A stretch of DNA of 32,000 nt from Methylorubrum extorquens. GTDB taxonomy: Bacteria; Pseudomonadota; Alphaproteobacteria; Rhizobiales; Beijerinckiaceae. The number at the start of each line of letters is the position of its first letter. The first letter of the stretch is position 1. The notes beneath the pieces were generated by a model, which worked only from the letters and a program-made list of their open reading frames with translations, did no database searches and was not told where the DNA came from. Location of the stretch: contig LT962688.1 in the NCBI GenBank assembly GCA_900234795.1, positions 3,720,001 to 3,752,000 on the forward strand, written 5' to 3'. The position numbers and the translations under genes are program-made. Below, one piece after another: positions 6,902-27,793 of the stretch.

Positions 6902-8618
6902 AGACGTTCGTCTCCCCCGCGCCGCCCGGATGCGTCACGGCCCCGTTCACTGCAGGCCCGACGGACTGCGCGTATTTCCAGAGGTAGCCGGAGGTCGCGG
7001 CATTGCCCCGCGGCGCCCATTCGCTGCGACGTTGGGCCAGTTCCTCGTCGGAGAGCGCCACGTCGAGCGTGCCCTTGATCGCGTCGAGGGTGATGATGTC
7101 GCCGTCGCGCAGCAGGCCGATCGGCCCGCCGATGGCAGCCTCGGGGCCGACATGGCCGACGCAGAAGCCGCGGGTCGCGCCGGAGAAGCGCCCGTCGGTG
7201 ATGAGGGCCACCTTGTCGCCCATGCCCTGGCCGTAGAGGGCGGCGGTGGTCGAGAGCATCTCGCGCATGCCGGGGCCTCCCTTCGGGCCCTCGTAACGGA
7301 TGACCAGAACGTCGCCGGGCTTGTAGGTGCGGTTCTGCACCGCCTCGAAACAGGCTTCCTCGCCGTCGAAGACGCGGGCCGGGCCGGTGAAGACCTGGGC
7401 CTCGGGCGGCATGCCGGCGACCTTCACGATCGCGCCCTCGGGGGCGAGATTGCCGCGAAGGCCCACCACGCCGCCGGTGACGGTGATGGGCTTGTCGGCC
7501 GGGCGCACGACGTCCTGATCCGGGTTCCAGGCGACCTTGGCGAGGTTCTCGGCGATGGTGCGGCCGGTGACGGTGAGGCAGTCGCCGTGCAGGTAGCCGT
7601 GGTCGAGCAGCGTCTTCATCAGCAGCGGGATGCCGCCGACCTCGAACATGTCCTTGGCCACGTAGCGCCCACCGGGCTTCAGGTCGGCGATGTAGGGGGT
7701 CTTGCGGAAGATTTCGGCGACGTCGAACAGGGTGAACTCGATGCCGCATTCATGCGCGATCGCCGGTAGATGCAGGGCCGCGTTGGTCGAGCCGCCCGAG
7801 GCCGCGACCGTCGCGGCGGCGTTCTCCAGCGCCTTGCGGGTGACGATGTCGCGCGGGCGGATGTTCTTGGCGATCAGCTCCATCACCTTCTCGCCGGCGG
7901 CGGCGCAGAATTGGTCGCGGATCTCGTAAGGAGCAGGCGCGCCGGCCGAGTAGGGCAGCGCGAGGCCGATCGCCTCGGAGACGGTGGCCATGGTGTTGGC
8001 GGTGAACTGCGCGCCGCAGGCGCCGGCTGAGGGGCAGGCGACCCGCTCCAGCTCGTCGAGGTCATCGAGGCTCATGTCGCCGACGGCGACCTTGCCCACC
8101 GCCTCGAACAGATCCTGCACCGTGACCGGCCGGCCGCGGAAGGAGCCCGGCAGGATCGAGCCGCCATAAATGAAGATCGACGGCACGTTGAGGCGCACCA
8201 TGGCCATCATCATGCCGGGCAGGGACTTGTCGCAGCCGGCCAGCCCCACGAGGGCGTCGTAGGAATGGCCGCGGATCGTCAGCTCGACCGAATCGGCGAT
8301 GACCTCGCGGGAAGGCAGCGAGGCGCGCATACCGCCATGGCCCATGGCGATGCCGTCGGTGACGGTGATGGTGCAGAACTCGCGCGGAGTGCCCTTGGCG
8401 GCGGCGACACCCTTCTTCACGGCCTGGGCCTGGCGCATCAGCGAGATGTTGCAGGGCGCGGCCTCGTTCCAGCACGAGGCGACGCCGACCAGCGGCTGGT
8501 GGATCTGCTCGGTCGTCAGGCCCATGGCGTAGAGGTACGAGCGGTGGGGCGCCCGCTCGGGCCCCTCCGTCACGTGCCGGCTCGGCAGCTTCGACTTGTC
8601 GGTCTGACGCGCGTCCAT
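6888..8618 (-). CDS. ilvD: Dihydroxy-acid dehydratase (575 aa)
   Basis: MDARQTDKSKLPSRHVTEGPERAPHRSYLYAMGL...CDKSLPGMMMA...GGSTNA...ALITDGRFSGATRGFCVGHVGPEA is full-length IlvD/Edd family sequence. Confidence 0.95.
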   Translation of the reverse strand: MDARQTDKSKLPSRHVTEGPERAPHRSYLYAMGLTTEQIHQPLVGVASCWNEAAPCNISLMRQAQAVKKGVAAAKGTPREFCTITVTDGIAMGHGGMRASLPSREVIADSVELTIRGHSYDALVGLAGCDKSLPGMMMAMVRLNVPSIFIYGGSILPGSFRGRPVTVQDLFEAVGKVAVGDMSLDDLDELERVACPSAGACGAQFTANTMATVSEAIGLALPYSAGAPAPYEIRDQFCAAAGEKVMELIAKNIRPRDIVTRKALENAAATVAASGGSTNAALHLPAIAHECGIEFTLFDVAEIFRKTPYIADLKPGGRYVAKDMFEVGGIPLLMKTLLDHGYLHGDCLTVTGRTIAENLAKVAWNPDQDVVRPADKPITVTGGVVGLRGNLAPEGAIVKVAGMPPEAQVFTGPARVFDGEEACFEAVQNRTYKPGDVLVIRYEGPKGGPGMREMLSTTAALYGQGMGDKVALITDGRFSGATRGFCVGHVGPEAAIGGPIGLLRDGDIITLDAIKGTLDVALSDEELAQRRSEWAPRGNAATSGYLWKYAQSVGPAVNGAVTHPGGAGETNVYADI

Positions 8619-9063
8619 CGCTGATCTCGTGCCCCGGTCCCGTTACGCCCCCGAGATCCGCGCGGCCCGTTACGGTCCAGTGCGGAAAAACGTCCTTCGA
8701 CGTCCTCGAAACTCTGCGGTAAGGCGTTGGAGCGACAGCGTTTACCGCGACCCCGGAAGTCGTCCCGGTTTATGGTGGGATTGCGGCGCTCAAAGGCACA
8801 GCTCAAGGCAAAGTCAGGTTGCTTTCGCGGTGTGTCGAGCCCGCAACAGCCGAGCTTGCGCCGGCCTTGGGAAGACTTCGCAAAATCAACGCGCACACAC
8901 CCTCGCGCGGTCCCGCACGAGGGCTGTTTTCAGCTCAAATTCCCGCGGCCTCGGCGCGTGCAATTCAAGCTTCGTCAGCAACCTCGACAGTGCCGACACG
9001 CGTCTTTTTTTGGAAAGCCGGCGACCCGTCCGTGGGGCGCCCCCAAAGCTTCGGCGAATTCAC

Positions 9064-13342: not shown

Positions 13343-13393
13343 TGGTGGGCGCGACAGGGATCGAACCTGTGACCCCTACCATGTCAACGTACT
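13343..13393 (-). other. 3' half of tRNA-Val(GAC), not a complete tRNA: likely att site of the adjacent island
   Basis: The reverse complement reads ..TTGACAT-GGTAG-GGGTC-ACAGG-TTCGATC-CCTGT-CGCGCCC-A-CCA. That gives the anticodon loop with GAC, the 3' anticodon stem, variable loop, T-arm, 3' acceptor strand and CCA. No D-arm or matching 5' acceptor strand follows. Confidence 0.7.
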
Positions 13394-13534
13394 CAGGCCG
13401 AACCGCCCTCCCCCATCAAAACCAACCTTTTCCTGAGGCCGGTCAATGCGTTGCGATCCATTCCCGTGCAGCGCCGTGCAGTCCCATCTAGCCCCCGTAC
13501 AGTGGGTTTCCATCCCATTTCCAACCCGGGTCGG

Positions 13535-14816
13535 TTACGCCGCGGCGGCCCGCTTCTGGTACTCGGAATGGGTGTGGCCGTAGGTCTCCAGGACCATCTT
13601 CACGGTCATGCCGAGGTACTCGCCGACCTCGTGCGGGGGGCACGCCGGCCTGGAGCATCAGGGTCGCCCGGGTGTGCCGGAGGATGTGCGGCGTCGGCAT
13701 CCCGAGGTCGTCGTCCTCGTCCTCGTTCCCGACGCGCCAGGAGCCGTCGATCTCGCGCCGGTCCAACCCGGCGAGCGCGGCCGCCCGGCCGAAGGCGCCG
13801 TCGACGCGCTCCATGCTCACGCCCCGCTCGTGGACGACGTGCGTGGGGGCGAGGCCGCTCGCCAGGTCGGCCTTCCGCCATTCCAGGAGGCGGGGCAGGA
13901 GCCGGTCCGGGATGCGGCATGGCGGCTGGCGCTTGCGGCTCGGCGGGGCCTCGGGTCCGGCCCGGAACAAGGTGACGCCGTTGAAGTCGACCCATCCGTC
14001 GAGGCGGTCGCGCTTCCATCGGAGCCCGAGGATCGCGCCGGACCGGGTGCCCGAGTAGAAGCCGATCTCGATGAAGCGCTCCAGGTGGTCGTCGTGGTGG
14101 TAGGCGTCGCCGGCCTTGGCCTTCCACGCCGTTACGAAGGCGGTGTCCCGGGCGCGCTCCCAGACGGGCTCGCGGGTCGCCAGGTCCGACGAGACCCAGC
14201 GCCAGCCTTGGGCGACGCGCAGGAGCCGGGCGTACTCGGACTCGGTGAGCCAGTCGACGTGCGGCTTGCCCGCGGGCGGCAGGGTCACGACAGGCTTGGC
14301 GTGCAGGGTGAACTCGCGGTGCCAGTGCCCGATGGCGGCGCCGAGGGTCTGAAGCTCGCGCCCGGCGGTCGTGGGCTTCGTGAGCTTCCCCTTCCCCTTC
14401 GCGCCCGGCGGCCGCCAGCGCTCCTTGCAGCGGGCCTCGACGTAGGCCCGGCACGAGGCCGCCTTCACCTGCGCTAGGGTCTTGCCGCCCCAGTGGCGGA
14501 GGAGGTTGGCGATGTGGTGCCCGGTCAGGGAGGCGTTGGACGTGCCCTCCTTCGCCTGGCCGTAGAAGGCGAGGCAGGTGGCGATGGAGACGAGGCGGGG
14601 GTCCTGGTTCGTCGGGTCGTCGTCGGAGGGCGTGATGACGGCCTCCTCCTCCGCCTGGCGGTCGCGCTCGATTACGTAGAGCGCGAGCTCCTTTTCAGCC
14701 TCGCCGCGATGGCCAGGGCCGTGCGATGTGCGTCGCTTGTAGTCCCCGTCGTGGATGGCCCAGACGCCGCGGTCGACGTCGAGCTTGAGCCGCGCGGGCT
14801 TGCGGGGGCGTGCCAT
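13535..14816 (-). pseudogene. Tyrosine recombinase (phage integrase family) with a frame shift in a G6 run (13635-13640, plus strand) just before the catalytic Tyr
   Basis: ORF 13488..14828 reads ...GMPTPHILRHTRATLMLQAGVPP and then nonsense. Dropping one base gives HEVGEYLGMTVKMVLETYGHTHSEYQKRAAAA with stop at 13535-13537, the canonical box II / Tyr ending. The probable start is MARPRKPARLKLD at 14816. Confidence 0.85.
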
Positions 14817-15067
14817 GTCTCGGTCCACTCCTTGAGAGCTCGCCGCGTCACGAAGATCCCGTGGCCGGGCCGGAACCCCCGCAGGGCCCGGCTCTCGACC
14901 GCCCGCCGCAACTGATAGGCGGAGAACATGGGCAGGAACGGCCCCTTGATCTCGGGGGTCCAGCGGGCGTCCTCCAGGCTCATGAGGTCGTCGGGCCCGC
15001 AGGCCTCGGCGCGCGCCATGGCGCCCTCGGAGATGTCGGTCGACAGGATGATCTCGTACGTCGGCAT
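14672..15067 (-). CDS. Putative excisionase/HTH_17-like DNA-binding protein
   Basis: MPTYEIILSTDISEG...FSAYQLRRAVESRALRGFRPGHGIFVTRRALKEWTE resembles the ...G.LPA.R.G+...F.R..L..W ending of AlpA/Xis proteins. It sits immediately upstream of int. The last ~48 codons overlap int out of frame and have poorer third-position GC, so the real 3' end is uncertain. Confidence 0.4.
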   Translation of the reverse strand: MPTYEIILSTDISEGAMARAEACGPDDLMSLEDARWTPEIKGPFLPMFSAYQLRRAVESRALRGFRPGHGIFVTRRALKEWTETWHAPASPRGSSSTSTAASGPSTTGTTSDAHRTALAIAARLKRSSRST

Positions 15068-16846: not shown

Positions 16847-17988
16847 GCCTGCCTCCCGGCCGCGGCGGCGTCCGCCCGCACGAAACGAATCGCCTCGTCC
16901 GCCCCGAGGCCGGCCCTCTGCGAGAGGGCGACGGCGAGGACGAGGTCATCGAGGCCGAGGCGGTTCGGGAAGGCGACGTCCCACTGCACCGTGGCGCGGG
17001 GGGCGACGGTCGCCGGGACCGGGGCGGGCTCGGCGTGCGGGGCCGGCGTGAAGGCCACCACGTTCGTGACCTCGGCCGCCGGCGCGGGGGCCGGGAGCGC
17101 GGGCACCGCGGGGGCGTCCGGACGCCTGAGCCCGAGGCGCTTCAGCGTGCCGTAGACGTAGCAACGCGAGACGCCCCACCGCTCCGCGAGAGTGGAGACG
17201 TTGGGCGTCTCGGTCCACTGGAGGCGGATCGTGGCTTCGTCGGGCAGTCGGGAGTGGCGGGGACGACGGGACAACATGGCGGACTCCTGGGCGACAGGGA
17301 TGGCAGGGCTCTCGGCGGGAGGGGCGGCCGCCTCCCGTTCGGCGTCCACCGGCTCCTCGACCCCGCGGGGCAGGAGGCCGGGGAAGGCACGGTCGACGGC
17401 GTCCGGCGGGTGCCCGGCGAGGGCGGCCGCGAGCTCCGGCGAGATCTCGGGGAGGCGGTAGCGCCCTGTGGCGGGCTGCTCGGGCACCAGTGCCAGGGCG
17501 GCCCGCATCACGGCGTACAGGTCCCGCTCATGCTCCAGCCTGGCCTCGATGCGGGCCGCCGCGTCGGCGTCGCCGCGGCTGGCGAGATGGCCGTCGCGCG
17601 AGTTCTCGCCCCGGGCGGCGCCCCGGAGCTTCGGCATGTCGGCGAGGCCGCGCTCCTGGAGCACGTACGTGAGCGACGCCAGCCCCATGCCGGCGGCGCG
17701 CTCGCCCGCCCGCCCGCTGCCCACGAGGAACGCGACCTCGACCGCCGCTGCCTCCTGGGCGGGCGAGGTCGTCCGCTTCTTACCGGGGTTGAGCGACCGC
17801 ATGCCAAGGCGGGCGCGGCCGGTGCGGGCCAGGTTGCCCAGCGTCCGGACGTCGATCCAGTGCCAGCGCTCCTCGGCGGCCTCCGCGCCGTACTGGTCGA
17901 AGAGCCGGGCCACGGCCTCGGGGGCGGGCGTCATGTAGACGTCGCGGTCGATGGAGCCGCCGACCTCCCGGGTGCGGCGGGCCTTCAC
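16843..17988 (-). CDS. Hypothetical protein (381 aa) with an internal HTH-like segment
   Basis: The GTG start at 17988 overlaps the upstream stop (GTGA) and has a GGAGGG sequence 5 nt upstream. The product reads VKARRTREVGGSIDRDVYMTPAPEAVARLFDQYG...LQWTETPNVSTLAERWGVSRCYVYGTLKRLGL... The remaining upstream part of ORF 16843..18804 is a shadow frame. Confidence 0.55.
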   Translation of the reverse strand: MKARRTREVGGSIDRDVYMTPAPEAVARLFDQYGAEAAEERWHWIDVRTLGNLARTGRARLGMRSLNPGKKRTTSPAQEAAAVEVAFLVGSGRAGERAAGMGLASLTYVLQERGLADMPKLRGAARGENSRDGHLASRGDADAAARIEARLEHERDLYAVMRAALALVPEQPATGRYRLPEISPELAAALAGHPPDAVDRAFPGLLPRGVEEPVDAEREAAAPPAESPAIPVAQESAMLSRRPRHSRLPDEATIRLQWTETPNVSTLAERWGVSRCYVYGTLKRLGLRRPDAPAVPALPAPAPAAEVTNVVAFTPAPHAEPAPVPATVAPRATVQWDVAFPNRLGLDDLVLAVALSQRAGLGADEAIRFVRADAAAAGRQA

Positions 17989-18197
17989 GCGTCCCTCCGG
18001 AGGCTGACGAATCGCTCGATGCGCCGCAGGTCGAGGGCCGCGAGAACGCGCTCCCCGACGGCCCGTCGGCCCTTGATGACGTCGTTGACGTAGGCGGCCG
18101 AGACGCCGGCCTGCTGGGCGAACGCCTTCTGCCCGCCGGCCTCCCGGATGGCCGTCGAAAGCCGGGCGCGGACGTCGTCTACGGTGAGATCGGTCAT
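17985..18197 (-). CDS. Cro/YdaS-like HTH DNA-binding protein (70 aa)
   Basis: MTDLTVDDVRARLSTAIREAGGQKAFAQQAGVSAAYVNDVIKGRRAVGERVLAALDLRRIERF. A GGAGGG sequence lies upstream of ATG 18197. Confidence 0.65.
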   Translation of the reverse strand: MTDLTVDDVRARLSTAIREAGGQKAFAQQAGVSAAYVNDVIKGRRAVGERVLAALDLRRIERFVSLRRDA

Positions 18198-18662
18198 GCT
18201 GCCCTCCGGGCGCGGTAGGCGGCCACGCGGGCGCGGGCGGCCTCGATGTTGGCCCGGGTCCTGGTGGCCCTGGGGTAGTCGAGGCCCCCGCTCGCGCAGG
18301 AGCGTCCTGACCATGCTCTCGGGGATGCCGGTGGCCTCGGCGGCGTAGAGGACGCCCCCGAGCTCCAGCGCCACGGCGACGACCTCCTCCTCCTGCGCCG
18401 GCGAGAGGTTGCGCCGGACCTTGGCGCTGCGCTCCCCCACGGTGATCGCGCGCCCCTGGGCGATCATGCGGCCGAGGTCGCTCTTGGACATCCACCACCA
18501 GCGGCCGCGGCAGCTCTCGTAGCCGTGCGAGACGGACTGCCGGTAGACGCGCACGGGGTCCGGGCGGACGTGAAGCGCGGCCGTCATGCTCCGCTCGGCC
18601 TCGTCGCGGCGGGGCGGGCGGACCCTGGCAGGGGGCGGCGGGGTCCAATCGAAGAGGCTCAT
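18194..18662 (-). pseudogene. HTH-containing regulatory protein (~155 aa) with an apparent frame shift in a C5 run (18285-18289)
   Basis: MSLFDWTPPPP...MSKSDLGRMIAQGRAITVGERSAKVRRNLSPAQEEEVVAVALELGGVLYAAEATGIPESMVRTLLRERG is followed by poor sequence. Dropping one base gives LDYPRATRTRANIEAARARVAAYRARRAA, with a stop overlapping the next ATG (ATGA). The start choice at 18662 is based on third-position GC. Confidence 0.5.
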
Positions 18663-18827
18663 CTGGCGCACGGCGGGGTTCCCGAATTCGCGTATCGGCA
18701 AATGTTCGTCCTCGACCCATGGCAGCGCAACGGCTACAGACATGGCAAGATGACGCACCCCCTATGTAGAGTTGGGACAAAGGTAAGGTCAGGATCGCCC
18801 CCAACAGCGGACGACGATTTGCACCAC

Positions 18828-18868: not shown

Positions 18869-18955
18869 AGGGCCTATCCTGCACAATAATTCGCTGGCTT
18901 TACTTGGCGCGCGGGTCTAGCCTCGTACCCGTATTCGTTAACTCGGGAACCCGTC

Positions 18956-19676
18956 ATGGCCCCCATCGACCCGAACTTCCTCCCCGACTTCCTCCGCGAC
19001 GAGCACCTGCCCCCCGCCCGTCGTCCTGCCGCCCGAGCCGCTCCGCGACTGGACCGCGTCCGCCGCCGCCCGGAGCCTCGCCGAGCGGGAGGAGCGCCGG
19101 ATTGCGAGCGCCAAGGCGTGGGCCGAGGAGTGCCGCCTGCGCCGGGAGCGCCTCGTGGCGCGTGCCCGGGCCGCGGCGACGGAGAGCCTGCGCGAGAGGC
19201 CGTGGGCCTGGGCGACGGCCGCCCTGATCGCGGAGGCGGAGGCCCTGCTCGCCCTGGAGGTTCTGGTCGAGCCCGACGCCGAGCGTCTCCTCAAGCTCGC
19301 CAAGGCCGCCGACGCCGCGGCCGCCAAGGCGCTGGAGGCCTCGGCCGTCCCCGTCCCGACGGAGGCGGAGCTTGCCCGTGACCCTGCCATCCGCGAGGCC
19401 TGCCGCCTGGGGCTGCACTACATCACCGTGCTCGACAGCGACCGCGCCCGGGTCACGAACGATTCGGGGTGGTCGAGGTCCACGACGGTGATGGGGCACG
19501 TGCTCGACGCGCTGCCCGAACTCGATGAGGCGCAGGCCAGCCACGCGCTCCGCATCCTCCGCATCCACCGCCGCCAGCTGCCCGACATCCTGGCCGGGGC
19601 CGTGTTCGAGGGGCTCACGCTCCCGCCGCGGCGCCTGCACATGTCCCCGATCTCGACCTCGGGCGCCCGGGCATGA
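18956..19676 (+). pseudogene. Hypothetical protein (~239 aa) with an apparent frame shift in a C6 run (19010-19015)
   Basis: MAPIDPNFLPDFLRDEHLPP in frame 2 continues after removal of one C as PVVLPPEPLRDWTASAAARSLAEREERRIASAKAWAEECRLRRERLVARARAAATESL... This joins ORF 19155..19676. Confidence 0.55.
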
Positions 19677-19765
19677 GCGCCGAGGTCGTCACCCTCAGGC
19701 CGGAGGGCGTGCCCACGCGCCCGATGGTCCGCTGGCTGGGCTCGAAGTGGCGGATGGTGCCCTGG
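19673..19765 (+). pseudogene. N-terminal stub (~30 codons) of a D12-class DNA adenine methyltransferase
   Basis: MSAEVVTLRPEGVPTRPMVRWLGSKWRMVPWV matches the R(Y/W)xGGKWRLAPWI N-terminus of phage-type Dam methylases. Similarity stops at about 19765, and the expected ..HFP.H..YVEPFGG does not follow. The ATG overlaps the upstream stop (ATGA). Confidence 0.5.
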
Positions 19766-19877
19766 GTCTGTGGCCTCAGGCCGGGTGCGTCATGGGTCGT
19801 GACCCATCCCCTGCCTCTTGCCCTGCCAAGGTCGGCATGGGGGCGTGGCCCGTGCAAGGTCACGAGGGAAGGGTGCC

Positions 19878-19987
19878 TCCCCATCGGCGCGCAGGACCAA
19901 TGACCCCATCGGCGTGATGCACCGATGAGGGGGCGGGCTATCGGTGTGGAGGACCGATGACAGTCATCGGCGTGGAGGACCGATGAC
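19878..19987. repeat. Four tandem ~25-32-bp units, each an inverted repeat CATCGG(C/T)G-N6-8-(G/C)ACC(G/A)ATGA (iteron/operator-like array)
   Basis: The units start at about 19878, 19903, 19928 and 19960. An exact 15-mer TGGAGGACCGATGAC occurs at 19947-19961 and 19973-19987. A local palindrome CCGATGAC-A-GTCATCGG lies at 19953-19969. Confidence 0.7.
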
Positions 19988-19995
19988 CCCTCAGG

Positions 19996-20164
19996 CCCAT
20001 CTCGCCCCATCCATGCCCATGGGCTGCCATGGTGGCTCCATGGGGCGGCCATGGGAGCCTGGGAGGGGGGCGACAGGGGCTAACCCATTGGGAATGCGCC
20101 ATGCGTCCCATCTCGCCCCATGGGGCTGCCATGGGCTGCCATGGGCTCTCATGGGCCGGGATGG
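19996..20164. repeat. Phased (C/T)CATGG array, in two clusters with 10-11-bp spacing
   Basis: CCATGG occurs at 20017, 20027, 20038 and 20049, and again at 20118, 20129 and 20139. TCATGG at 20149 and GGATGG at 20159 continue the phase. Each cluster is preceded by the exact 15-mer CCCATCTCGCCCCAT (19996-20010 and 20107-20121). Confidence 0.7.
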
Positions 20165-20526
20165 GCCTGGCGAGGGAACTTGGTCAGTAGCCCCGCTTGA
20201 TCGTCTCCACCCATGGCGTACTTGAAGACCGCGGACTGATCGTCGCCGAGGTAGGCCTCGGCCTCCACGATGCCCAGGTCGCGGTTCTTGGCAAGGCTGC
20301 GCCGGTACTGCCACCCGGCGACCATCCAGGGCGTCGGATCGCGGAAGGTGTCCCCAGTCGCGCGGCGCATGTCCTCGGAGACCGCCTTGACGCTCTCGTC
20401 CACCACCCAGGCGCAGGCCCGGCGGAATTTGCCGTAGCTCGTCTCGGAGACGTACTGCTCCTCCCACGCGGCGAGGACCTCGCTGAGGTCGCTGACGAAG
20501 GAACCGTATGAGGGGGGTCGGGCCAT
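20149..20526 (-). CDS. Hypothetical protein (125 aa)
   Basis: MARPPSYGSFVSDLSEVLAAWEEQYVSETSYGKFRRACAWVVDESVKAVSEDMRRATGDTFRDPTPWMVAGWQYRRSLAKNRDLGIVEAEAYLGDDQSAVFKYAMGG... Third-position GC is good except over the last ~20 codons, which run into the CCATGG array, so the 3' end may be altered. Confidence 0.5.
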   Translation of the reverse strand: MARPPSYGSFVSDLSEVLAAWEEQYVSETSYGKFRRACAWVVDESVKAVSEDMRRATGDTFRDPTPWMVAGWQYRRSLAKNRDLGIVEAEAYLGDDQSAVFKYAMGGDDQAGLLTKFPRQAHPGP

Positions 20527-20843
20527 GGGCCTAGCCTGGCAGGGGGAGCCGTGGCCCGTGCAAGGGCACGGCGAGGCACCTGGACGGGGCTGGCGGGGGC
20601 CTGCCGGCCTGGTGCGGTCCGAGGGAGCCGGGGACCGCAGGGAGGGGCTGTGCGGAGCCTCCAGGGGCCTGAAACGCAGAACCCTGCCTCGCCGGAGACC
20701 GGGGGCAGGGTTCCGGGCGATTGTGGTGCAACCCCCAACTGTCCCGTGCAGGACAGGCGGAAGGTAGCGCTCCACCTGGGAAGCCACAAGGTCCGGGCGG
20801 ACACGTAGCCTACGGCCCTGCACGGGAAAGGGCTGCCCTGGGG

Positions 20844-22604
20844 CTACGCCTGGACCTGGGAGAGGCTGCCCTGAGGCCTCCGGCCCTGCCCCTGGAGGGA
20901 GGTTGCCTGGAGGCTCCGCCCGGCCCTGGACGAGGCCTTCCCGGGCTTCGCCTTGCCCGGCAGGCGGTCGGGAACCAGGGCCCTGGGAAAGGCGCGCATG
21001 CCGGTCTCCACCTCGTGGGCGATGAGGTCGTGGGCGAGTTCGATGACCGCGGCCCGGCGCATGTCCCAATCCACCCAGGAGGAACCCGGTCCGGCCTGCT
21101 GGCGCTCGAAGGCGAGGAGACGGGTCTGGTACGCGATCATCGCCTCCAGACGCTCGGCCGGCACCCAGGAGACCGTGCGAGGCTCGGGAGCGACGGAGGG
21201 AGCGGGCGACGCCGGAAGGGACTGCATGGGCGAGAAATCGACCTTGGCGACACCCTCCTTGAGACCGGCCTCGCGCGAGGGTGGCGACACGGCCGGGGCG
21301 GAGGCGGGAGGCGCCGCCGGGGCGGCGGGCCCGGGACGGGCCGTTTGTCGGATCGTTCTCGTCGAAGTGGTTGAAGTTGTTCCAGAAAGCCTGACGCGCG
21401 TCGTGTCGAGAACCTCCTGCATGATGGCGGTCACATGGCCGCCCGACCGCCGGGGCGCGAGGAAGGAATCGTGCACCGGCAGGACGCCGTCCACGCCGGC
21501 CTTGCGGCACCGCTTCATGACGTCGATGGCCATGCCGCTGTCGATGGCCATGAGGCGGATGCCGGCGTCCGACCCAAGGAACTCGCGGATGAGCTCGTTG
21601 CGGTGCGCGACCTCGTCGAGCAGAAGCTCGGTGTAGCACCGGGTCTCGGACCAGCCCGGCTTCCACATGAGCGCGTCGACGGCGCCCTTCATGGAGCCGG
21701 CGTTGATGGCGACGTTGAGGGCCCACTTGCAGTGCTGCCGGGGGAAGCGGTCGGTGTCGTAGGGGTCGAAGTCCAGGCGCACACCCTTCATGGCGTAGAG
21801 GAGGGTCGGGTGGAGGGCGGCGAAGTCCTCCTCGATGAGGAGTTCCCCGTTGATGAGGAGTTCGCCCCGGCGCTCCTTGGGGAGCTGCTGCCACCAGCCG
21901 TAGAGCCTGCCGTGGCAGTCGTGCCTGCCGCGCCCGAGGATGCGGACGATGCTGTTCGAGGGGGTCGGCAGGGCGCAGGCCCACGTCTCTCGGCCGTCCC
22001 GGACCTTCCGGCCCTTCAGGTGGTGCTCGGTCCTCTGCCAGTCCTCGGGGGAGGCGTCGGGGGACAGCGTCACGTCGAGGCCGGCGAGCCATTCGTTGAT
22101 GCCGTCGACATCGGCCTGCATGCGCCGGGTCCGCTCGGTGTTGGGCAGGCGCATGGCCCTGCCGTCCTCGTCCCGCATGATGAGCGTGGCGGGGGGCGTC
22201 ATGTGCTCGAACCGGGTGCCGGCGAGGCGCTCGACGAGGAGCGGGGTGGCGCGGATCCTGGACTGGAGCGGGACCTTGGCGAGGTGGGCGCCGCGCTTGG
22301 CCCTGACCTCCTCGATGAGGCCGGCCTCGCCGAGGCGGGAGACCGAGGCGACGACGGTCGAGTAGGAGATGGGCGTCCGGTCGTAGTGCCCCTCGGCGTA
22401 CCAATCCCTGCTACGGGAGTACGAGAGCCACTGCATGTCCGTCTCCGCGGCGAGGCCGAGGGCGGCGACCATGCTGGAGAGCGTGCGCTCGTGCCGGTCG
22501 CAACCGGTCGGCGCGATGCCGAGGGCGGCGACGGCCTTGGGGCTCGCTCGCCAGTCGAAACCCCAGGTACGGTCCCTGGGACGTTCGGATGTGTGGGGGA
22601 TCAT
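20844..22604 (-). CDS. Compact family-A (Pol I/T7-like) polymerase-motif protein with an initiator-like N-terminal region and a C-terminal extension
   Basis: ORF 20844..22673 opens at a TTG; the first ATG is at 22604, and an ATG at 22436 has a GGAG sequence upstream. Motifs appear in canonical order: HGRLYGWWQQLP (21897-21914 and following), EEDFAALHP (21807-21833), RQHCKWALNVAINAG (21696-21740), GMAIDVMKR (21510-21536) and PVHDSF (21462-21479). All matches are by hand alignment only. Confidence 0.55.
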   Translation of the reverse strand: MIPHTSERPRDRTWGFDWRASPKAVAALGIAPTGCDRHERTLSSMVAALGLAAETDMQWLSYSRSRDWYAEGHYDRTPISYSTVVASVSRLGEAGLIEEVRAKRGAHLAKVPLQSRIRATPLLVERLAGTRFEHMTPPATLIMRDEDGRAMRLPNTERTRRMQADVDGINEWLAGLDVTLSPDASPEDWQRTEHHLKGRKVRDGRETWACALPTPSNSIVRILGRGRHDCHGRLYGWWQQLPKERRGELLINGELLIEEDFAALHPTLLYAMKGVRLDFDPYDTDRFPRQHCKWALNVAINAGSMKGAVDALMWKPGWSETRCYTELLLDEVAHRNELIREFLGSDAGIRLMAIDSGMAIDVMKRCRKAGVDGVLPVHDSFLAPRRSGGHVTAIMQEVLDTTRVRLSGTTSTTSTRTIRQTARPGPAAPAAPPASAPAVSPPSREAGLKEGVAKVDFSPMQSLPASPAPSVAPEPRTVSWVPAERLEAMIAYQTRLLAFERQQAGPGSSWVDWDMRRAAVIELAHDLIAHEVETGMRAFPRALVPDRLPGKAKPGKASSRAGRSLQATSLQGQGRRPQGSLSQVQA

Positions 22605-22744
22605 GGAGGCCTGCACGGCGTGTGTTGGAGGGCATACGCCAGGCCGGCACCACACGGCCTCGCGCACCCACAAACGTGGCCGCGTCGCTGGAAATCCGCC
22701 AGTGCCATCAAGGACCTAGCCTTAACCGCCGGGTTAACCAGACC

Positions 22745-22990
22745 CCATGGTGGCTCCCCCATCCAAGCGGGCCCCATGGCAGGTCCATTTTCTCCCATGA
22801 GAAGCCCATGACCTCGCGGCGAGTGGCACCCGGCGACCTTCGGGAGCGCGACATGCCCTGGCGGGCATCCAGGCGCCTTGGCGGGCCATGCATAAAAATG
22901 TGCAGGGCCTGGCCGGTGGTCGCGGAGCCATTCCGAAAACGCTGGCTGGTCCATCGGGCCCCATGGGACACCATGGGGCGGACGCATGGC
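22745..22990. repeat. Second set of phased CCAT(G) arrays, sharing words with the 19996-20164 arrays
   Basis: CCAT occurs at 22745, 22759, 22774, 22785, 22795 and 22806, and at 22951, 22961, 22971 and 22984. The 13-mer CCATGGTGGCTCC (22745-22757) equals 20027-20039, and CCATGGGGCGG (22971-22981) equals 20038-20048. Orientation is the same in both sets. Confidence 0.6.
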
Positions 22991-23040
22991 TCGATGGGAT
23001 CGGGCAAGGGCCGGCCACGAATCGAGCAAGCCGTCCTTGG

Positions 23041-23062
23041 GTCTCCTCAGATCTGAGGAGAC
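23041..23062. repeat. Perfect 22-bp palindrome GTCTCCTCAGATCTGAGGAGAC
   Basis: Read directly from the sequence. It lies at the right margin of the CCATGG-rich region and has no T-run on either side. Confidence 0.6.
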
Positions 23063-23338
23063 CCCGGTTCCGACGCGCGGGGGAAGCGGATGGCCCGGAC
23101 GCCTGGTGGCGGCGCGGCGAACCGCCAACCCTGGAGTCCCATCCACCAGGAGCCCGCCCCCGTGTTACACCGGGGCCGCCTACGTCACCTCGCTCCAGGC
23201 CGATCTCGCCGGCGCCCGCGCCGAGGCCTTGACCGCAAAGGCGGACGCCGCGGGCAAGGCGGCCGCCATCGCCGCCCCGGCCTCGTCCGATGACCCGGTC
23301 GCCCCCGTCCTTCGCGACGCCCTGGAGGGCCTCAGCCC

Positions 23339-24280: not shown

Positions 24281-24407
24281 GATGTTTGGTCCCGCTATGT
24301 GGTGGTACGACTGATGCCGCATGGAGGGACGCGCTATGGGACAGGTTCTCCACGGCAGCGCCACGACGACTGCGACGGTCCGTCGGGCAATCCAAGCTCG
24401 TCAAGAG
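24281..24407 (+). mobile_element. Relic of an IS481-family insertion sequence (left end plus the first ~24 transposase codons)
   Basis: ATG 24336 gives MGQVLHGSATTTATVRRAIQARQE, which matches the conserved IS481-family transposase N-terminus (MGQVLHGSA.TT..VRRAIQ.SQES...) as I remember it. Similarity stops at about 24407. Confidence 0.4.
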
Positions 24408-25876
24408 TGGGCGCCGCGGGCAAGGTCCCGTCTGACGCCGCCGACGAGTTGCTCGCGGAGGCCGAAGCCGCCGCCGCCGCCGTCTCCGGCTACGAGGACG
24501 CGGCCGCCAAGGCGAGGCAGTACGTCATTCAACGCATCCCGAAGTTCATCTACGTGGCCGAGTTCCCGGAGCTGTCCGGCCACCAGGATATCGAGGAGCT
24601 CCTCTATAGGCCGAGCCCCCACCACGGGCATCCCGGCAAGAAGCGCGACGACCACGACGAGAGTGAGCTCAACTTCCTCAAGATGGCGAAGGTCGCCGGC
24701 TTCGACCCGGAGCGCCTGTACAAGCTCGGGGCCGAAGGCCACGAGGAGCGTTCTCAGCTCCTGAACCGCGCCGGGGCCGTCATCTCAAGCCGATTGCGCG
24801 AGCGGTGGAAGGACCGGTCGCTCAAGGTCCGGTACAACCTCGACGGCAACCACCTCGACACGCTCGTATCGGACCCGAACACGTCCTACGACGTCGAGGT
24901 GAACCTCGACGAGCGCAGCCGCGGCCTGCGCTGGTTCTTCGCCTTCTACGTCACCTTCACGGCCGACACCCAGGGCGGCGACGCCGACGGCGCCATCCTG
25001 CTGCTCGACGAGCCAGGCCTCTTCCTCCACGCCATGTCGCAGGGCGACCTGCTGAGGCACCTCAAGAACGACTTCGCGAACCAGGTCGTCTACACGACGC
25101 ACTCGCCCTTCATGATCCCGCCGGACGACGTCGCCTCGGCCCGGACGGTGAACATCTCGCAGGACGAGGGCACGACGGTCACCGACAGCCCGACGGGGGA
25201 CGAGCGCACGCTGTTCCCCCTTCAGGCCGCGCTCGGCTGGACGCTGGCGCAGTCGCTGTTCGTGGGCCCGAACAACCTCCTGGTCGAGGGCGTGACGGAC
25301 TTCTGGATACTCTCGGCCGTGAACGGCTGGCTGAAGCAGAACGGCGCGAAGGGAACGCTCCCGGCCGACCTGGCGCTCACCCCGGTCGGGGGCGCGGGCA
25401 AGATGACCTACATGGCGGCCTTGCTGACGGGGCAGCGCCTGAACGTGTTCGCCCTGCTGGACGGCGATAAGGCCGGCCACGACGCGCAGCAGGAGCTCGT
25501 CCGCGGGAAGCTCCTGAACCAAAAGTCGATCTTCTTCGTGACCGAGGCGTTCGACCCGCCGGCCAAGGAGGCGGACATCGAGGACCTGCTCGACCCCAAG
25601 GTCTACGAGGATCTGGCCCGCCGCGCCTACGCGAAGGAACTCGCCAAGGTCACTCTCAAGCTGAACGACAAGGTCCCGCGGATCGTCAAGCGCTTCGAGC
25701 TCGCCTTCGAGGAGAAGGGCCTGACCTTCGATAAGGGCAGGCCGGCCCGCCTGTTCATGACCGAGATGGCCTCGCGACCGGCAGACCTGGTCGACGCGGC
25801 GACCAAGGCCCGCTTCCTGAGGCTGTTCTCGGTGATCGTTAAGAGGATGACGACGGTCGCGGCCGCCGCGGCCTGA
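24407..25876 (+). pseudogene. OLD-family ATP-dependent nuclease (ABC-type ATPase + TOPRIM) lacking its N-terminal Walker A region
   Basis: The ORF contains a signature/Walker B region ...RGLRWFFAFYVTF...AILLLDEPGLFLHAMSQGDL and an H-loop VVYTTHSPFMI. A TOPRIM domain follows: NNLLVEGVTDFWILSAVN...LTPVGGAGKM...ALLDGDKAGHDA. No GxxGxGK(S/T) motif occurs in any frame upstream. Confidence 0.75.
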
Positions 25877-25893: not shown

Positions 25894-27438
25894 TCAGGCC
25901 GATGGCGGCGCTTCCGGCGGGGCGGCCTGACCTACGGCGTAACGGTCCTTGAACCGGTCGTGGCCGGCCAAGGCGGCTGGCCGGTAAGGCCCCGAGCCGG
26001 CGCATTGCGGAACCCATTCCAGGTCGAACCGCTCGACCACCGTCTGGTGGACCGGGGCGTCGTGCGCGATGCTACGCACCTGCGAGGCCCAGTTCCAGGA
26101 GGCCAAGAAACGACGCAGGAAAACCGGGATCGAGCGCTCGATGGTGTCGCGCATCCCGGCGATTTCGCAGTGCTGCACCCCGTCGGCGGCCGGGAAGACG
26201 TGGAGCTTGGGATTGCCGGTCGCGTCCCCAGGCGCGCTCAGCCCGTCGACCTTGAGGCCATCCGGGATGCGGGTGGCCTCCTCGATCATCCACCCCAGCG
26301 CGACGTCGGACAGGCGGGACTCGGCCTCGGGGTAGCTCCCGCCGATGTCCGAGTGGTTGCCGGCGAACCAGAGTTGGACGAGGCGCTCGGGGCCCTCGCC
26401 GTGGGGCTGCGCCCCGTCCTGGATGCCGCCCCAGGCCACGCGGTCGAAGTCCTTGCGGGTCTCGTCGATGGCGTTGGCGGAGCGCGCGTACCGGACGAAG
26501 CGGCTGAGCAGGCGGTCGAAGTTCTCGACCTTCCAGTTTGCCATGTGGCTGCTCTTGTCCCCCGGGTTCGGGAAGTCGCGGATCACCTTTCGGCGCGAGC
26601 GCCGCTCGCGGTTCCAGAGCCAGGCGCCGCCGACCAGGACGAAGAGAAGCAGGAGCCAGCCAAGGGCGGGCCAGAAGTGCGCGCCGGCGAAGGCGACCAG
26701 GAGGCCCGCCGCGGCCGCTGCAGGCAAGAACCCGACAAGAGCGAGGCCGAGGGTGGCCCCGACGGCCAAGCCGGACTGGATCAGGAAGCGACGAACCCCC
26801 TTGGCACCGAGCGCCGCCACGGTGTCGAACACGCCGATGAAGTACGGGGCCGCGTTGGAGCGGCCGCGCTCGCCGCTCTCGTGTGCCGATGCGTACCGGT
26901 CGCGAAAGCGCCGGGCGAGCTCATCCCTTTCGGCCTCGTACTTCGCCCGCCCGTGCCCGGCTCCATGCTCCAGCACAGTCTCGACCGCTTCCCGGGCGAT
27001 GTCGCGTGCGCCCTTGCGGAAGCGAGGCAGGTCCCCGTTCGCGCCGCGGGTCGGCACGCCGCACAGCATCAGCAGGTTCGCCACGCACCGGACCGTGTAG
27101 GCGCCGCGGCTGAACCCGATGAGGAAGATGCGGTCCCCCTCCCGGTAGTGGTTGATGATGAATTCGTAGCAGTCGGCGATGTTGGTCGTGATGCCGCGCC
27201 CGGTCACCGAGGCCAGCAGCTTCTGCACGAACCGCACGGGGGAGGACAGCGCGGTGGCGCCGATGTCCGTGCCGAGGCCTGGGTCATAGAACGCGACCTG
27301 CTCGGCCGGGTCTATCCTGCTGTCGGGGCCTGTCCGGCAAACCCGGTACATCTTGTAGACGTTGCTGACCCTCTGCCCGGGCCTGACCCCGCCGTCCTGG
27401 CCGGTCCCGTCCGAGAACACCACGATGTTCTTGGGCAT
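25894..27438 (-). CDS. DUF2235 (T6SS Tle1-like alpha/beta hydrolase) family protein with an internal hydrophobic insert
   Basis: MPKNIVVFSDGTGQDGG...VAFYDPGLGT...IFLIGFSRGAYTVRCVANLL...YFIGVFDTVAALG...LWFAGNHSDIGGSY carries the family motifs. Residues encoded at about 26614-26787 form 2-3 predicted TM helices: LIQSGLAVGATLGLALVGFLPAAAAAGLLVAFAGAHFWPALGWLLLLFVLVGGAWLW. Confidence 0.8.
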   Translation of the reverse strand: MPKNIVVFSDGTGQDGGVRPGQRVSNVYKMYRVCRTGPDSRIDPAEQVAFYDPGLGTDIGATALSSPVRFVQKLLASVTGRGITTNIADCYEFIINHYREGDRIFLIGFSRGAYTVRCVANLLMLCGVPTRGANGDLPRFRKGARDIAREAVETVLEHGAGHGRAKYEAERDELARRFRDRYASAHESGERGRSNAAPYFIGVFDTVAALGAKGVRRFLIQSGLAVGATLGLALVGFLPAAAAAGLLVAFAGAHFWPALGWLLLLFVLVGGAWLWNRERRSRRKVIRDFPNPGDKSSHMANWKVENFDRLLSRFVRYARSANAIDETRKDFDRVAWGGIQDGAQPHGEGPERLVQLWFAGNHSDIGGSYPEAESRLSDVALGWMIEEATRIPDGLKVDGLSAPGDATGNPKLHVFPAADGVQHCEIAGMRDTIERSIPVFLRRFLASWNWASQVRSIAHDAPVHQTVVERFDLEWVPQCAGSGPYRPAALAGHDRFKDRYAVGQAAPPEAPPSA

Positions 27439-27793
27439 GTGCCACCGCAAGTCCGCTCAACCCCGTCGGCACACCCGGTCAGGGGACCGAGGCCTCCGGC
27501 TTCGACGCTGGCGGCACGCGTCGCCGCCGCTTTCGCCCCGAGACTCGCAACGGTTAGGTTCGGCCTTTGTTTCACAAGCATGGGCCGCATCGCGCCCAGA
27601 CTTACTTTCCATCTCGCGCCGCGGTCGATGCCACGACCAACCGGCGGCTGAACGGGTTCCGCCACTTGCGGCCACGCTCCCAAAGCCGACAAAATGGCGG
27701 CATAGGGCGGACCGTCGGACAGGCCTGCCGTGCTCCGAAGCCAATCAGACGGGAATGGAGCGCGGCCGGGTTCGGCCGCCGGGGTCGAGCGTG

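What the first reader, a model, noticed from the sequence alone, without database searches (positions are those of the whole stretch)
19878..19987. Array of four tandem inverted-repeat units (CATCGGYG..ACCRATGA) next to the polymerase-like module
Four consecutive ~25-32-bp units each contain the two halves of an inverted repeat. One is a perfect CCGATGAC-A-GTCATCGG at 19953-19969. The exact 15-mer TGGAGGACCGATGAC is repeated 26 bp apart. This matches the architecture of iterons, operators or centromere-like sites bound by dimeric proteins. No coding frame explains it. A replication origin or partition site for the adjacent cassette is the simplest reading.
Basis: seen in the sequence. Interest (0 to 1): 0.65.

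Follow-up and report, generated by a model that had tools for sequence, protein, structure and literature searches.

The report
Conserved protein-binding repeats in prophage relic
Four tandem 21-bp inverted-repeat units are real and conserved in related Methylobacterium prophages, where they sit in the non-coding control region between an uncharacterised polymerase-like gene and the DNA-packaging genes, but in this window they are a leftover in a decayed prophage and their exact job (replication origin, packaging or late-gene control) is unproven.

Summary
There are four units of CATCGG-N9-CCGATG at 19882-19985, against 0.21 expected by chance.

The units are conserved. I found 33 units in 10 diverged Methylobacterium loci, always just 3' of a two-gene cassette: a winged-helix plus family-A-polymerase-like gene, then "gene 2". 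Half-sites are 96% conserved and spacers 77%. Copy number ranges from 1 to 5. There is no compensatory change, no Rfam hit and no terminator, so this is a DNA site for a dimeric protein and not an RNA.

The units are one part of a 0.4-0.85 kb conserved non-coding region that also holds 10-bp-phased CCATGGG repeats. CAT(C/G)GG clusters bracket the cassette on both sides.

In the one intact relative (L120) this region runs straight into Nu1-like TerS, gpA TerL and a lambda-type portal. The window has lost those genes by deletion, along with most of a Dam methylase gene, 645 bp of gene 2 and the AT-rich block next to the array. It is a cryptic-prophage relic.

Distant polymerase-like homologs, including integrative mobilisable elements that carry a relaxase, are followed by different dyad arrays. 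This favours iteron/origin-like sites for the polymerase-like protein (about 0.35). A cos-accessory role (about 0.22) and late-operon control (about 0.15) remain open. A partition site is unsupported.

The parts
19882..19985 (.). Array of four 21-bp dyad units, CATCGG-N9-CCGATG, at 19882-19902, 19907-19927, 19939-19959 and 19965-19985. Read on the - strand (the sense of gene 2) the consensus is CATCGGTCCnnCACGCCGATG.
   Evidence: establish the units. Orthologous arrays occur in L111, L110, L105/L119, L098, L115, L117 and L120, with single units in L001 and L002.
19990..20170 (.). Two opposed clusters of CCATGG(G) repeats at 10-11-bp spacing (20016-20056 and 20117-20165), flanking a 66-bp centre. 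They differ from the unit half-site by one base (CATGGG against CATCGG).
   Evidence: families D2, D4, D5 and inverted repeat I1. The block is about 80% conserved with L111 13122-13424. The same motif clusters next to polymerase-like genes in L001, L002, L005, L006, L008, L014, L082, L110, L111, L113 and L120.
19762..19879 (.). Conserved non-coding blocks 'B' and 'C' beyond the array. These are GC-rich dyads such as GGCGTGGCCCGTGCAAGGTCACG and CCCTGCC..GGCAGGG. The region is cut short at about 19762-19768 by a deletion.
   Evidence: It aligns to L111 13513-13631. Block B is invariant at many columns across 7 loci.
19673..19768 (+). 5' remnant (about 30 codons) of a D12-class Dam DNA methyltransferase gene. 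The rest was lost in the deletion that also removed the structural genes.
   Evidence: The segment RPMVRWLGSKWR matches residues 7-28 of the L110 300-aa MethyltransfD12 protein.
20149..20526 (-). Remnant of 'gene 2'. It keeps the first 106 of 328 residues and has a 645-bp internal deletion at 20209/20210. The family is uncharacterised and restricted to Methylobacterium.
   Evidence: There is a weak match to phrog_1924, 'minor tail protein'. The AF2 model was unusable, with pLDDT 38.
20844..22604 (-). Intact 586-aa protein. The N-terminus looks like a winged helix. The core is a compact family-A polymerase or single-subunit RNA-polymerase-like palm and fingers, with motifs DFAALHP, RQHCKWALN and VHDSF. 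A disordered linker and a C-terminal helical hairpin follow.
   Evidence: phrog_4756; pLDDT 79.6; 1xwl, E 4.6e-5.
22740..23000 (.). Upstream cluster of CAT(C/G)GG motifs, in the divergent region between the polymerase-like gene and the remnants of the lysis operon. It includes CCATCGG, CCATGGG and CCATGGG at 10-bp spacing (22951-22977).
   Evidence: the second densest 300-bp window of the 32 kb. The same position holds a cluster in L115, L119 and L120 and in L001, L002, L008, L082 and L110.

Best explanation
The four units are binding sites for a dimeric, sequence-specific DNA-binding protein of a lambda-like temperate Methylobacterium phage. Each unit offers two inverted CATCGG half-sites whose centres are 15 bp apart. 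Tandem units would assemble a multi-dimer nucleoprotein complex.

Together with the adjacent 10-bp-phased CCATGGG repeats, they form the cis-acting region that belongs to the cassette of the winged-helix plus family-A-polymerase-like gene. The most likely role is iteron-type sites. The N-terminal winged helix of the polymerase-like protein would bind them to mark where it starts DNA synthesis or priming (an origin). The second motif cluster, upstream of its own gene, would give autoregulation.

What is shown: the repeats exist, they are conserved at the DNA-sequence level, they are linked to the cassette, and the polymerase fold is real. What is inferred: which protein binds, and the origin function.

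In this window the site is probably no longer working. The prophage has lost the AT-rich block next to the array, the structural genes, most of the Dam gene and two thirds of gene 2.
For: 1. Non-random and non-coding.

2. Thirty-three units in 10 loci. Flanking DNA in these loci is only 66-80% identical to the window, and the window's polymerase-like protein is 45-53% identical to theirs. Half-sites are 95.7% identical to the majority base, against 77.4% for spacers. In the first 21 units compared, T3, G5 and C16 never varied.

3. No pair shows a change on both sides, and pairing is no better than in shuffles. There is no Rfam family. The selection therefore acts on DNA sequence and not on an RNA helix.

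4. Copy number varies from 1 to 5. L120 has units in both orientations. This is what symmetric protein sites that expand by unequal crossing-over would show.

5. Linkage to the cassette. Units occur only 3' of gene 2 in all loci where gene 2 is at least about 66% identical. In about 0.9 Mb of other related loci only scattered single matches occur.

6. CAT(C/G)GG hexamers give the two densest 300-bp windows of the 32 kb, on either side of the cassette: 15 and 8 hits. Random placement gave a mean maximum of 4.4 and never more than 8 in 1000 trials. The same bracket is seen in L115, L119 and L120.

7. Family-wide pattern. Distant polymerase-like homologs are followed by different dyad arrays: ACCGGAA-N5-TTCCGGT in L035 and TTCGAA-type in L060, L074 and L075. 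Repeat arrays with at least 5 copies were found in 11 of 56 downstream regions against 1 of 56 far-upstream regions, Fisher p = 0.004.

8. In L074, L060 and L075 the layout is tRNA, polymerase-like gene, arrays, NikA/MobC, relaxase. This is a rep-ori-mob-like layout with no packaging or late genes.

9. The AF2 model shows an N-terminal winged-helix-like domain and a family-A polymerase core.

10. An AT-rich block (GC 0.35-0.42 in a background of 0.67-0.70) lies 34 bp from the array in L110, L105 and L098. This resembles the iterons-plus-AT-rich layout of ori-lambda, a comparison I make from established knowledge.
Against: - No binding or replication data exist.
- In the Methylobacterium clade gene 2 sits between the polymerase-like gene and the array, and in 5 loci the units abut the gene 2 stop codon. 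The linkage could therefore be to gene 2 or to what lies downstream.
- In L120 the region lies between gene 2 and Nu1-like terS, which is the position of cos in lambda.
- The dyad units proper are found only downstream. The upstream cluster is made mostly of CCATGGG-type motifs, so two different proteins may be involved.
- The polymerase-like family is nearly absent from 72,556 plasmids (2 weak hits). That is odd for a Rep protein.
- The window and L111 lack the AT-rich block.
- Unit spacing (22-33 bp) is not in phase with the DNA helix.
Confidence: 0.35

Rival explanations
1. The array is a packaging signal. The units would be accessory terminase-binding or host-factor-binding sites of a lambda-type cos region, bound by the dimeric winged-helix-turn-helix of the Nu1-like small terminase. 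They would help to start or end DNA packaging. In the window they would be a relic, because the terminase genes are deleted.
For: - In the intact relative L120 the homologous 840-bp non-coding region runs directly into a Nu1-like TerS (HTH at residues 42-94, weak DUF1441 match), gpA-type TerL (GpA_ATPase and GpA_nuclease), an 89-aa gene and a lambda-family portal.
- L014 also places the polymerase-like gene 2.4 kb upstream of a gpA TerL.
- Lambda cosB consists of several TerS-binding R sequences in mixed orientation, and their number changes by unequal crossing-over (PMC4669245). L120 has units in both orientations, and copy number varies from 1 to 5.
- Homology among loci that lack structural genes ends exactly at the terS start, at about L120 8825.
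Against: - The units lie 450-750 bp from the terS start in L120. Lambda cos spans about 200 bp next to Nu1 (PMC4669245).
- Better cosB and cosN candidates lie nearer terS: the GCATTCCGC inverted repeats at L120 8758-8826, and the highly conserved GC-rich block D at 8598-8640.
- This reading does not explain the second CAT(C/G)GG cluster upstream of the polymerase-like gene.
- It also does not explain the dyad arrays behind polymerase-like genes in mobilisable elements that have no terminase.
Confidence: 0.22
2. The array is a set of transcriptional control sites. The CAT(C/G)GG arrays would be operator or activator sites for a phage regulator, possibly the polymerase-like protein or gene 2. 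The regulator would switch on, or insulate, the two late operons that leave this region: lysis genes on one side and terS plus structural genes on the other.
For: - Motif clusters sit upstream of both operons. One is in the divergent region between the lysis operon and the polymerase-like gene. The other is in the non-coding region ahead of terS.
- L120 has a hairpin followed by a T-run directly after gene 2, at 8005-8047. The structural operon therefore probably needs its own promoter inside this region.
Against: - No sigma-70-like promoter was found in 19500-20400.
- Arrays of up to 5 dyads plus 10 or more CCATGG sites, 450-750 bp from the first gene, are unusual for late activators.
- In the window nothing remains downstream to regulate.
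- In 5 loci the units begin 0-10 nt after the stop codon of gene 2.
Confidence: 0.15
3. The array acts at the RNA level. The units would be tandem hairpins in the 3' UTR of the gene 2 mRNA, each with a 6-7-bp stem and a 9-nt loop. They would terminate transcription or protect the message from 3' exonucleases.
For: - The units start directly after the gene 2 stop codon in L001, L002, L098, L105 and L110.
- The - strand RNA folds into the expected hairpins at -68.2 kcal/mol, z = -2.75.
Against: - None of the 6 stem pairs shows a compensatory change. Single-sided changes give as many mismatches as G-U pairs on either strand.
- Stem sequence is conserved more strongly than stem pairing would require.
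- There is no U-tract and no terminator call, and no Rfam match.
- In L120 two units are inverted and lie hundreds of bp beyond a genuine terminator-like hairpin.
- In the window and L111, 160 bp of CCATGG repeats separate the units from the gene.
Confidence: 0.05
4. The array has no function. It would be a selfish or neutral tandem repeat, such as a REP/BIME-like element or a slippage product carried along in a decaying prophage.
For: - The window copy sits in a degraded element.
- Copy number is unstable, from 1 to 5.
Against: - The units are not dispersed. They occur only in this module within the 32-kb window and about 0.9 Mb of related loci. The region has no blastn match in plasmids or phages.
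- Half-sites stay 96% identical across loci whose flanks are 66-80% identical to the window, while spacers drift.
- The order of spacer subtypes along the array is kept between loci.
Confidence: 0.05

Closest known systems
ori-lambda type origin (four 19-bp iterons, each with internal dyad symmetry and bound by O-protein dimers, next to an AT-rich region). Also the SaPI/PICI and plasmid layout of rep followed by iterons. Comparison from established knowledge.
   Same: - Several tandem units of about 20 bp, each with a dyad, separated by a few bp.
- Variable copy number.
- An AT-rich block 34 bp away in relatives.
- A position next to a gene for a protein with a DNA-binding domain plus a nucleotidyl-transferase-like domain.
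- A second set of related repeats on the other side of the gene, as in P1 incC/incA or P4 ori/crr.
   Different: - The candidate initiator is a compact family-A polymerase or single-subunit RNA-polymerase-like protein. It is not an O, RepA, Rep_3 or AEP-primase type protein.
- Another gene lies between it and the array.
- Half-site centres are 15 bp apart, which puts them on opposite faces of the helix.
- The window copy has no AT-rich block.
- Binding and replication are untested.
Lambda-type cos region (cosQ-cosN-cosB, with R3/R2/R1 TerS sites and an IHF site); PMC4669245.
   Same: - In L120 the region lies directly upstream of Nu1-like terS, gpA terL and the portal.
- It holds repeated sites in both orientations, and their number changes between relatives.
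- TerS of this type is a winged-helix-turn-helix dimer.
   Different: - The units are 450-750 bp from terS, outside the roughly 200 bp that lambda cos spans.
- Each unit is itself a dyad, whereas lambda R sites are single.
- Related motifs also occur 3 kb away, upstream of the polymerase-like gene.
- Cohesive ends have not been mapped.
- The window has no terminase genes.
RSF1010 ssiA/ssiB sites and the mitochondrial OriL hairpin (single-strand initiation hairpins used by a dedicated primase or by a T7-like RNA polymerase). Comparison from established knowledge.
   Same: - Inverted repeats able to form hairpins.
- A position next to a gene for a T7-RNAP/PolA-fold enzyme.
- Occurrence in mobilisable elements that carry a relaxase (L074, L060 and L075).
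   Different: - There is no evidence of single-stranded intermediates or of priming.
- There are 1-5 tandem copies, where those systems have one per strand.
- The stems are conserved in sequence and show no covariation.

Membership tests
Iteron-type replication origin | Several directly repeated units of about 17-22 bp with a conserved sequence | tested here: met
   Four units in the window and 33 units in 10 loci.
Iteron-type replication origin | An adjacent AT-rich DNA-unwinding element | tested here: not met
   In the window the lowest 40-bp GC within +/-500 bp is 0.57, and that stretch is 190 bp away. The block is present (GC 0.35-0.42, 34 bp away) in L110, L105 and L098.
Iteron-type replication origin | A cognate initiator gene adjacent to the iterons, with iteron sequence co-varying with the initiator | tested here: inconclusive
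   The polymerase-like gene is 0.9 kb away with the gene 2 remnant in between. Distant homologs carry different dyad arrays downstream. Within Methylobacterium the motif is constant.
Iteron-type replication origin | Supports autonomous replication, and the initiator binds the repeats | not testable with these tools
   This needs EMSA or footprinting and a replication assay.
Lambda-type cos (cosB R sites) | Lies immediately upstream of the small and large terminase genes | tested here: not met
   The window has no terminase genes; they were removed by a deletion with its junction at about 19762-19768. In L120 the region does precede Nu1-like terS and gpA terL, but the units are 450-750 bp away.
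Lambda-type cos (cosB R sites) | A cosN nicking site that generates cohesive ends, and TerS binding to the repeats | not testable with these tools
   This needs virion end mapping and binding assays.
REP/BIME-type dispersed extragenic palindromes | Many copies dispersed in intergenic regions across the genome | tested here: not met
   At 1 mismatch or fewer, all 4 matches in the 32-kb window fall in the array. In about 0.9 Mb of related loci, copies occur essentially only behind gene 2. The region has no blastn match in plasmids or phages. The whole host genome was not searchable.
Intrinsic terminator | A GC-rich hairpin followed by a U-tract | tested here: not met
   No terminator-like sites in 19500-20400.
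Structured non-coding RNA | Base-pair covariation, or a match to a known family | tested here: not met
   No pair has a change on both sides, and the score is no better than in shuffles. No Rfam hit at gathering threshold.
Plasmid or phage centromere (parS/parC) | Adjacent parA/parB or parM/parR genes | tested here: not met
   No Par domains in the neighbouring ORFs scanned in the window. Not every small ORF was scanned.
Family-A DNA polymerase / T7-like RNA polymerase (the neighbouring protein) | Palm and fingers fold with motifs A, B and C | tested here: inconclusive
   The fold matches (Foldseek 1xwl E 4.6e-5, probability 1.0; mitochondrial and T7 RNA polymerases also hit). D260, K293 and D379 are invariant. 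However, no Pfam or PDB sequence hit was found, the motif spacing is much shorter, and the motif-B tyrosine is replaced by N301. Activity is unknown.

The most novel reading that the evidence does not exclude
The winged-helix plus mini family-A polymerase, together with its clade-specific dyad arrays, would be a previously undescribed self-contained replication or priming module of alphaproteobacterial prophages and integrative mobilisable elements. The enzyme would recognise the arrays, either as duplex iterons or as extruded or single-stranded hairpins in the way N4 virion RNA polymerase or mitochondrial RNA polymerase does at OriL. It would then start DNA or primer synthesis there.

A related possibility concerns the many loci that keep the polymerase-like gene, gene 2 and the whole non-coding region up to the exact terS start but have no structural genes. 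These could be cos-carrying satellites that exploit L120-type helper phages.
Probability: 0.12. Interest if true: 0.8.

Novelty: new member of a known kind. Interest (0 to 1): 0.42.

Why it matters
The array itself is an ordinary kind of object: repeated dyad sites in a phage control region. It does, however, give a concrete, conserved DNA target next to a widespread protein family that nobody has characterised. This family is a compact family-A polymerase or RNA-polymerase-like enzyme fused to a winged helix. I found it in 208 loci of alphaproteobacterial and other genomes and in large lytic phages.

If the protein binds these repeats, the pair would define a new phage and mobilisable-element replicon or priming system, and a host-range-specific origin usable in Methylobacterium genetics. 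If the terminase binds them instead, they define the packaging specificity of a lambda-like Methylobacterium phage group. That would also explain why structural-gene-less relics keep the region.

Tried and rejected
1. Looked for the motif next to 82 polymerase-like loci from genomes. No arrays were found at first. The link only appeared after a metagenome pattern scan and lookups of closer homologs.

2. The viral-contig pattern scan gave one hit, a chance match inside a coding region. The same sequence recurred as L092, L094 and L099.

3. Other metagenome arrays share the half-sites but have different spacers (L093/L104, L096, L100, L101/L106/L107/L109 and L103). Their contexts are unrelated (AAA/FtsH genes, a sodium:solute symporter), so I treated them as unrelated tandem repeats selected by the search pattern.

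4. blastn of 18900-23100 against plasmids and phages found nothing.

5. A PDB sequence search with the polymerase-like profile found nothing meaningful.

6. PADLOC gave no defence-system hit for the polymerase-like protein or gene 2.

7. The structure prediction of gene 2 was unusable, with pLDDT 38.

8. The attP or arm-site idea was rejected. The integrase and the tRNA fragment lie 5 kb away, and in L110 and the window the region is internal to the prophage.

9. By-eye readings as a sigma-54 promoter, a LexA box, a DnaA box or a resolvase res site found no convincing match and no recombinase neighbour. These were not pursued.

10. One NCBIfam call failed because of a coordinate error.

Full report
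**The observation**

The window is 70% GC chromosomal DNA of a Methylorubrum/Methylobacterium extorquens-type bacterium. Protein hits give the organism, and housekeeping genes occupy 0.3-11.4 kb.

At 19882-19985 there are four units of CATCGG-N9-CCGATG, with start-to-start spacing of 25, 32 and 26 bp. With at most one mismatch the pattern occurs four times in 32 kb, all here, against 0.21 expected; 0 of 100 shuffles reached four. The two 15-mers are exactly as stated.

Third-position GC is flat across 19800-20150. There is no sigma-70-like promoter or intrinsic terminator and no Rfam family.

Directly beside the array lie two opposed clusters of CCATGG(G) at 10-11-bp spacing, at 20016-20056 and 20117-20165.

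**Context in the window**

The array lies in an integrated element.
- A tyrosine integrase (13488-14828, - strand) sits next to a 3' tRNA fragment at about 13344-13390.
- An HTH repressor-like gene (17985-18758, - strand) faces a 239-aa gene (18942-19676, + strand).
- Then comes the non-coding region.
- A 125-aa ORF (20149-20526, - strand) and a 586-aa gene (20844-22604, - strand) follow.
- Beyond them lie spanin-like and lysis-operon remnants, an OLD-family nuclease and a Tle1-like gene.

The 586-aa protein has no Pfam hit and matches phrog_4756. Its AF2 model (pLDDT 79.6) matches family-A polymerases and single-subunit RNA polymerases: Bst Pol I at E 4.6e-5, then apicoplast polymerase, mitochondrial RNA polymerase and T7 RNA polymerase. 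It also matches uncharacterised proteins of about 430 aa in lytic phages. Residues 36-130 look like a winged helix.

**Conservation**

The first 82 genome loci carrying polymerase-like homologs showed no array. The closest homolog, L082 (89% protein identity), has lost the region.

A metagenome scan for two adjacent units found two true relatives, L098 and L105, with the same gene order. Lookups of further homologs of the polymerase-like protein and of gene 2 added L110, L111/L112, L115/L116, L117/L118, L119 and L120. L001 and L002 carry single units.

In every locus where 'gene 2' is at least about 66% identical, units follow it. In five loci they begin 0-10 nt after the stop codon.

In all there are 33 units in 10 loci. 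Copy number is 1-5 and tandem spacing is 22-33 bp. Units are dispersed and in both orientations in L120. Half-sites are 95.7% identical to the majority base and spacers 77.4%. Flanking DNA in these loci is only 66-80% identical to the window.

No stem pair shows a compensatory change, and pairing is no better than in shuffles. The constraint is therefore on the DNA sequence of two inverted hexamers 15 bp apart, which is what a dimeric DNA-binding protein would require. It is not a constraint on an RNA hairpin.

**The array is part of a larger conserved non-coding region**

Alignments A2 and A3 show the following order, read in the sense of gene 2:
1. the units;
2. in most loci, an AT-rich block, CCACGAATATGAACAAACGTTCAGGTATACC (GC 0.35-0.42, 34 bp from the array);
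3. a GC-rich dyad, 'block B';
4. 'block C';
5. the highly conserved 'block D', GGAGCGGGGCATGTAGAGGGCGGCGCGGTGCGCGCG;
6. a second AT-rich stretch with GCATTCCGC inverted repeats.

The window and L111 lack the first AT-rich block. Instead they carry the CCATGGG clusters between gene 2 and the units.

CCATGGG differs from the unit half-site (CCATCGG) by one base. At 22951-22977 the two variants alternate at 10-bp spacing.

CAT(C/G)GG hexamers give the two densest 300-bp windows of the whole 32 kb, one on each side of the cassette of the polymerase-like gene and gene 2 (15 and 8 hits). Random placement gave a mean maximum of 4.4 and never exceeded 8 in 1000 trials. The same bracket is present in L115, L119 and L120. 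CCATGGG clusters accompany polymerase-like genes in at least ten Methylobacterium loci.

**What the intact element looks like**

L120 is a 56.6-kb metagenome contig. Its order is as follows:
- lysis genes, transcribed leftward;
- the polymerase-like gene and gene 2, transcribed rightward;
- an 840-bp non-coding region with units, CCATGG clusters and blocks B and D;
- a Nu1-like TerS with an N-terminal HTH;
- a gpA-type TerL;
- an 89-aa gene;
- a lambda-family portal.

L014 independently places a polymerase-like gene 2.4 kb upstream of a gpA TerL.

L110 is syntenic with the window but keeps 5.4 kb between the array and a full-length Dam methylase gene.

It follows that the window has three deletions:
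- one from about 19762-19768 that removed block D, the terminase and structural genes and all but the first 30 codons or so of the Dam gene;
- a 645-bp deletion inside gene 2;
- loss of lysis genes relative to L082.

The window element is a cryptic-prophage relic in which the polymerase-like gene is still intact.

**Mechanism**

Three DNA-level readings fit.

(a) Iteron or origin-type sites for the polymerase-like protein. I prefer this reading because the association of a polymerase-like gene with a downstream dyad array extends across the family, with different motifs in different clades:
- ACCGGAA-N5-TTCCGGT in L035, and TTCGAA-type in L060, L074 and L075;
- arrays of at least 5 copies in 11 of 56 downstream regions against 1 of 56 far-upstream regions, p = 0.004;
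- elements laid out as tRNA, polymerase-like gene, arrays, NikA/MobC and relaxase, which have neither terminase nor late genes.

The protein has a plausible DNA-binding domain. Related motifs flank its gene on both sides, as in P1 incC/incA or P4 ori/crr. Relatives have an AT-rich block beside the array, as in ori-lambda. These three comparisons rest on established knowledge.

(b) Accessory packaging sites of a lambda-type cos. This is supported by the position ahead of Nu1-like terS and gpA terL, and by repeats in mixed orientation whose number varies (PMC4669245). It is weakened by the 450-750 bp distance from terS, by better cosB and cosN candidates nearer terS, and by the arrays found in elements without a terminase.

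(c) Control sites for the two late operons that leave this region.

RNA hairpin, terminator and REP-like readings are disfavoured. A partition site has no support.

None of the binding partners is shown; all are inferred. The window copy has probably lost its function, because it lacks the AT-rich block, block D and everything downstream.

**Comparison with known systems and novelty**

As an object, the array is a new member of a known kind: tandem dyad protein-binding sites in a phage cis-control region. It is not a member of any named family that I could test (see the membership table).

The less ordinary part is its partner. This is an uncharacterised, compact family-A-polymerase-like protein with a winged helix. 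It occurs in 208 genomic loci, almost never on plasmids, and only distantly in sequenced phages.

If that protein uses these repeats as an origin or as priming sites, the pair would be a new replicon type. I put that at roughly one chance in eight. My overall interest score is 0.42.

Noticed in passing
window 20016-20056, 20117-20165 and 22740-23000: CCATGG(G) repeats at 10-11-bp spacing flank the cassette of the polymerase-like gene and gene 2 on both sides. They differ from the unit half-site by one base (CATGGG against CATCGG). Similar clusters sit next to polymerase-like genes in at least ten other Methylobacterium loci.
   Followed up: partly
window 20844-22604 (- strand): This is an uncharacterised protein family: an N-terminal winged-helix-like domain plus a very compact family-A polymerase or T7-RNAP-like core, with invariant D260, K293 and H378-D379-S380. 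It has no Pfam hit. It occurs in 208 loci, mostly alphaproteobacterial, and as proteins of about 430 aa in large lytic phages.
   Followed up: partly
L074 4519-9720; also L060 and L075: In Hoeflea, Rhizobium and Neorhizobium the polymerase-like gene lies next to a tRNA gene. It is followed by an 860-bp AT-rich non-coding stretch packed with TTCGAA-type dyads, then NikA/MobC and a MobA/VirD2 relaxase. This is the layout of an integrative mobilisable element.
   Followed up: partly
L001 8500-8920, L098 2700-2940 and L082 8635-8693: A further array of GTCCGC-N4-GCGGAC dyads, spaced 36-95 bp apart, lies beyond the point where the terS gene begins in L120. It is shared by three loci that lack terminase genes. 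Its function is unknown.
   Followed up: no
L111, L115, L117, L119, L001 and L002 compared with L120 at about 8825: Several loci keep the polymerase-like gene, gene 2 and the whole non-coding region, but their homology to L120 stops exactly at the terS start codon. Host-like genes (metal efflux, patatin, lactonase) follow within about 1 kb. These are either recurrent deletion relics or cos-carrying satellite-like elements.
   Followed up: partly
window 13344-13390 and 13488-14828: The 3' half of a tRNA gene (- strand, not called by ARAGORN) sits directly beside a tyrosine integrase gene. It is probably one attachment-site end of the prophage. No matching direct repeat was found elsewhere in the window.
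   Followed up: partly
window 24299-25876 and 25894-27456: An OLD-family ATPase/TOPRIM nuclease (PADLOC Old, E 2e-15) lies beside a T6SS Tle1-like phospholipase-domain gene. The Tle1-like gene is 82% identical to one in L031, where it also lies near a polymerase-like gene.
   Followed up: no
window about 20844-20910; L082 7701-7840: The 3' end of the polymerase-like gene and the DNA just beyond it contain 35/70-bp tandem repeats of the type GGCAGCCTC...CAGGG...GGCC. They encode the low-complexity C-terminal tail (family D1).
   Followed up: no
L093/L104, L096, L100, L101/L106/L107/L109 and L103 (metagenome contigs): Tandem arrays with the same CATCGG-N9-CCGATG frame but unrelated spacers and unrelated gene contexts turned up in the metagenome pattern scan. 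They are probably products of the search pattern, but the shared frame was not explained.
   Followed up: partly
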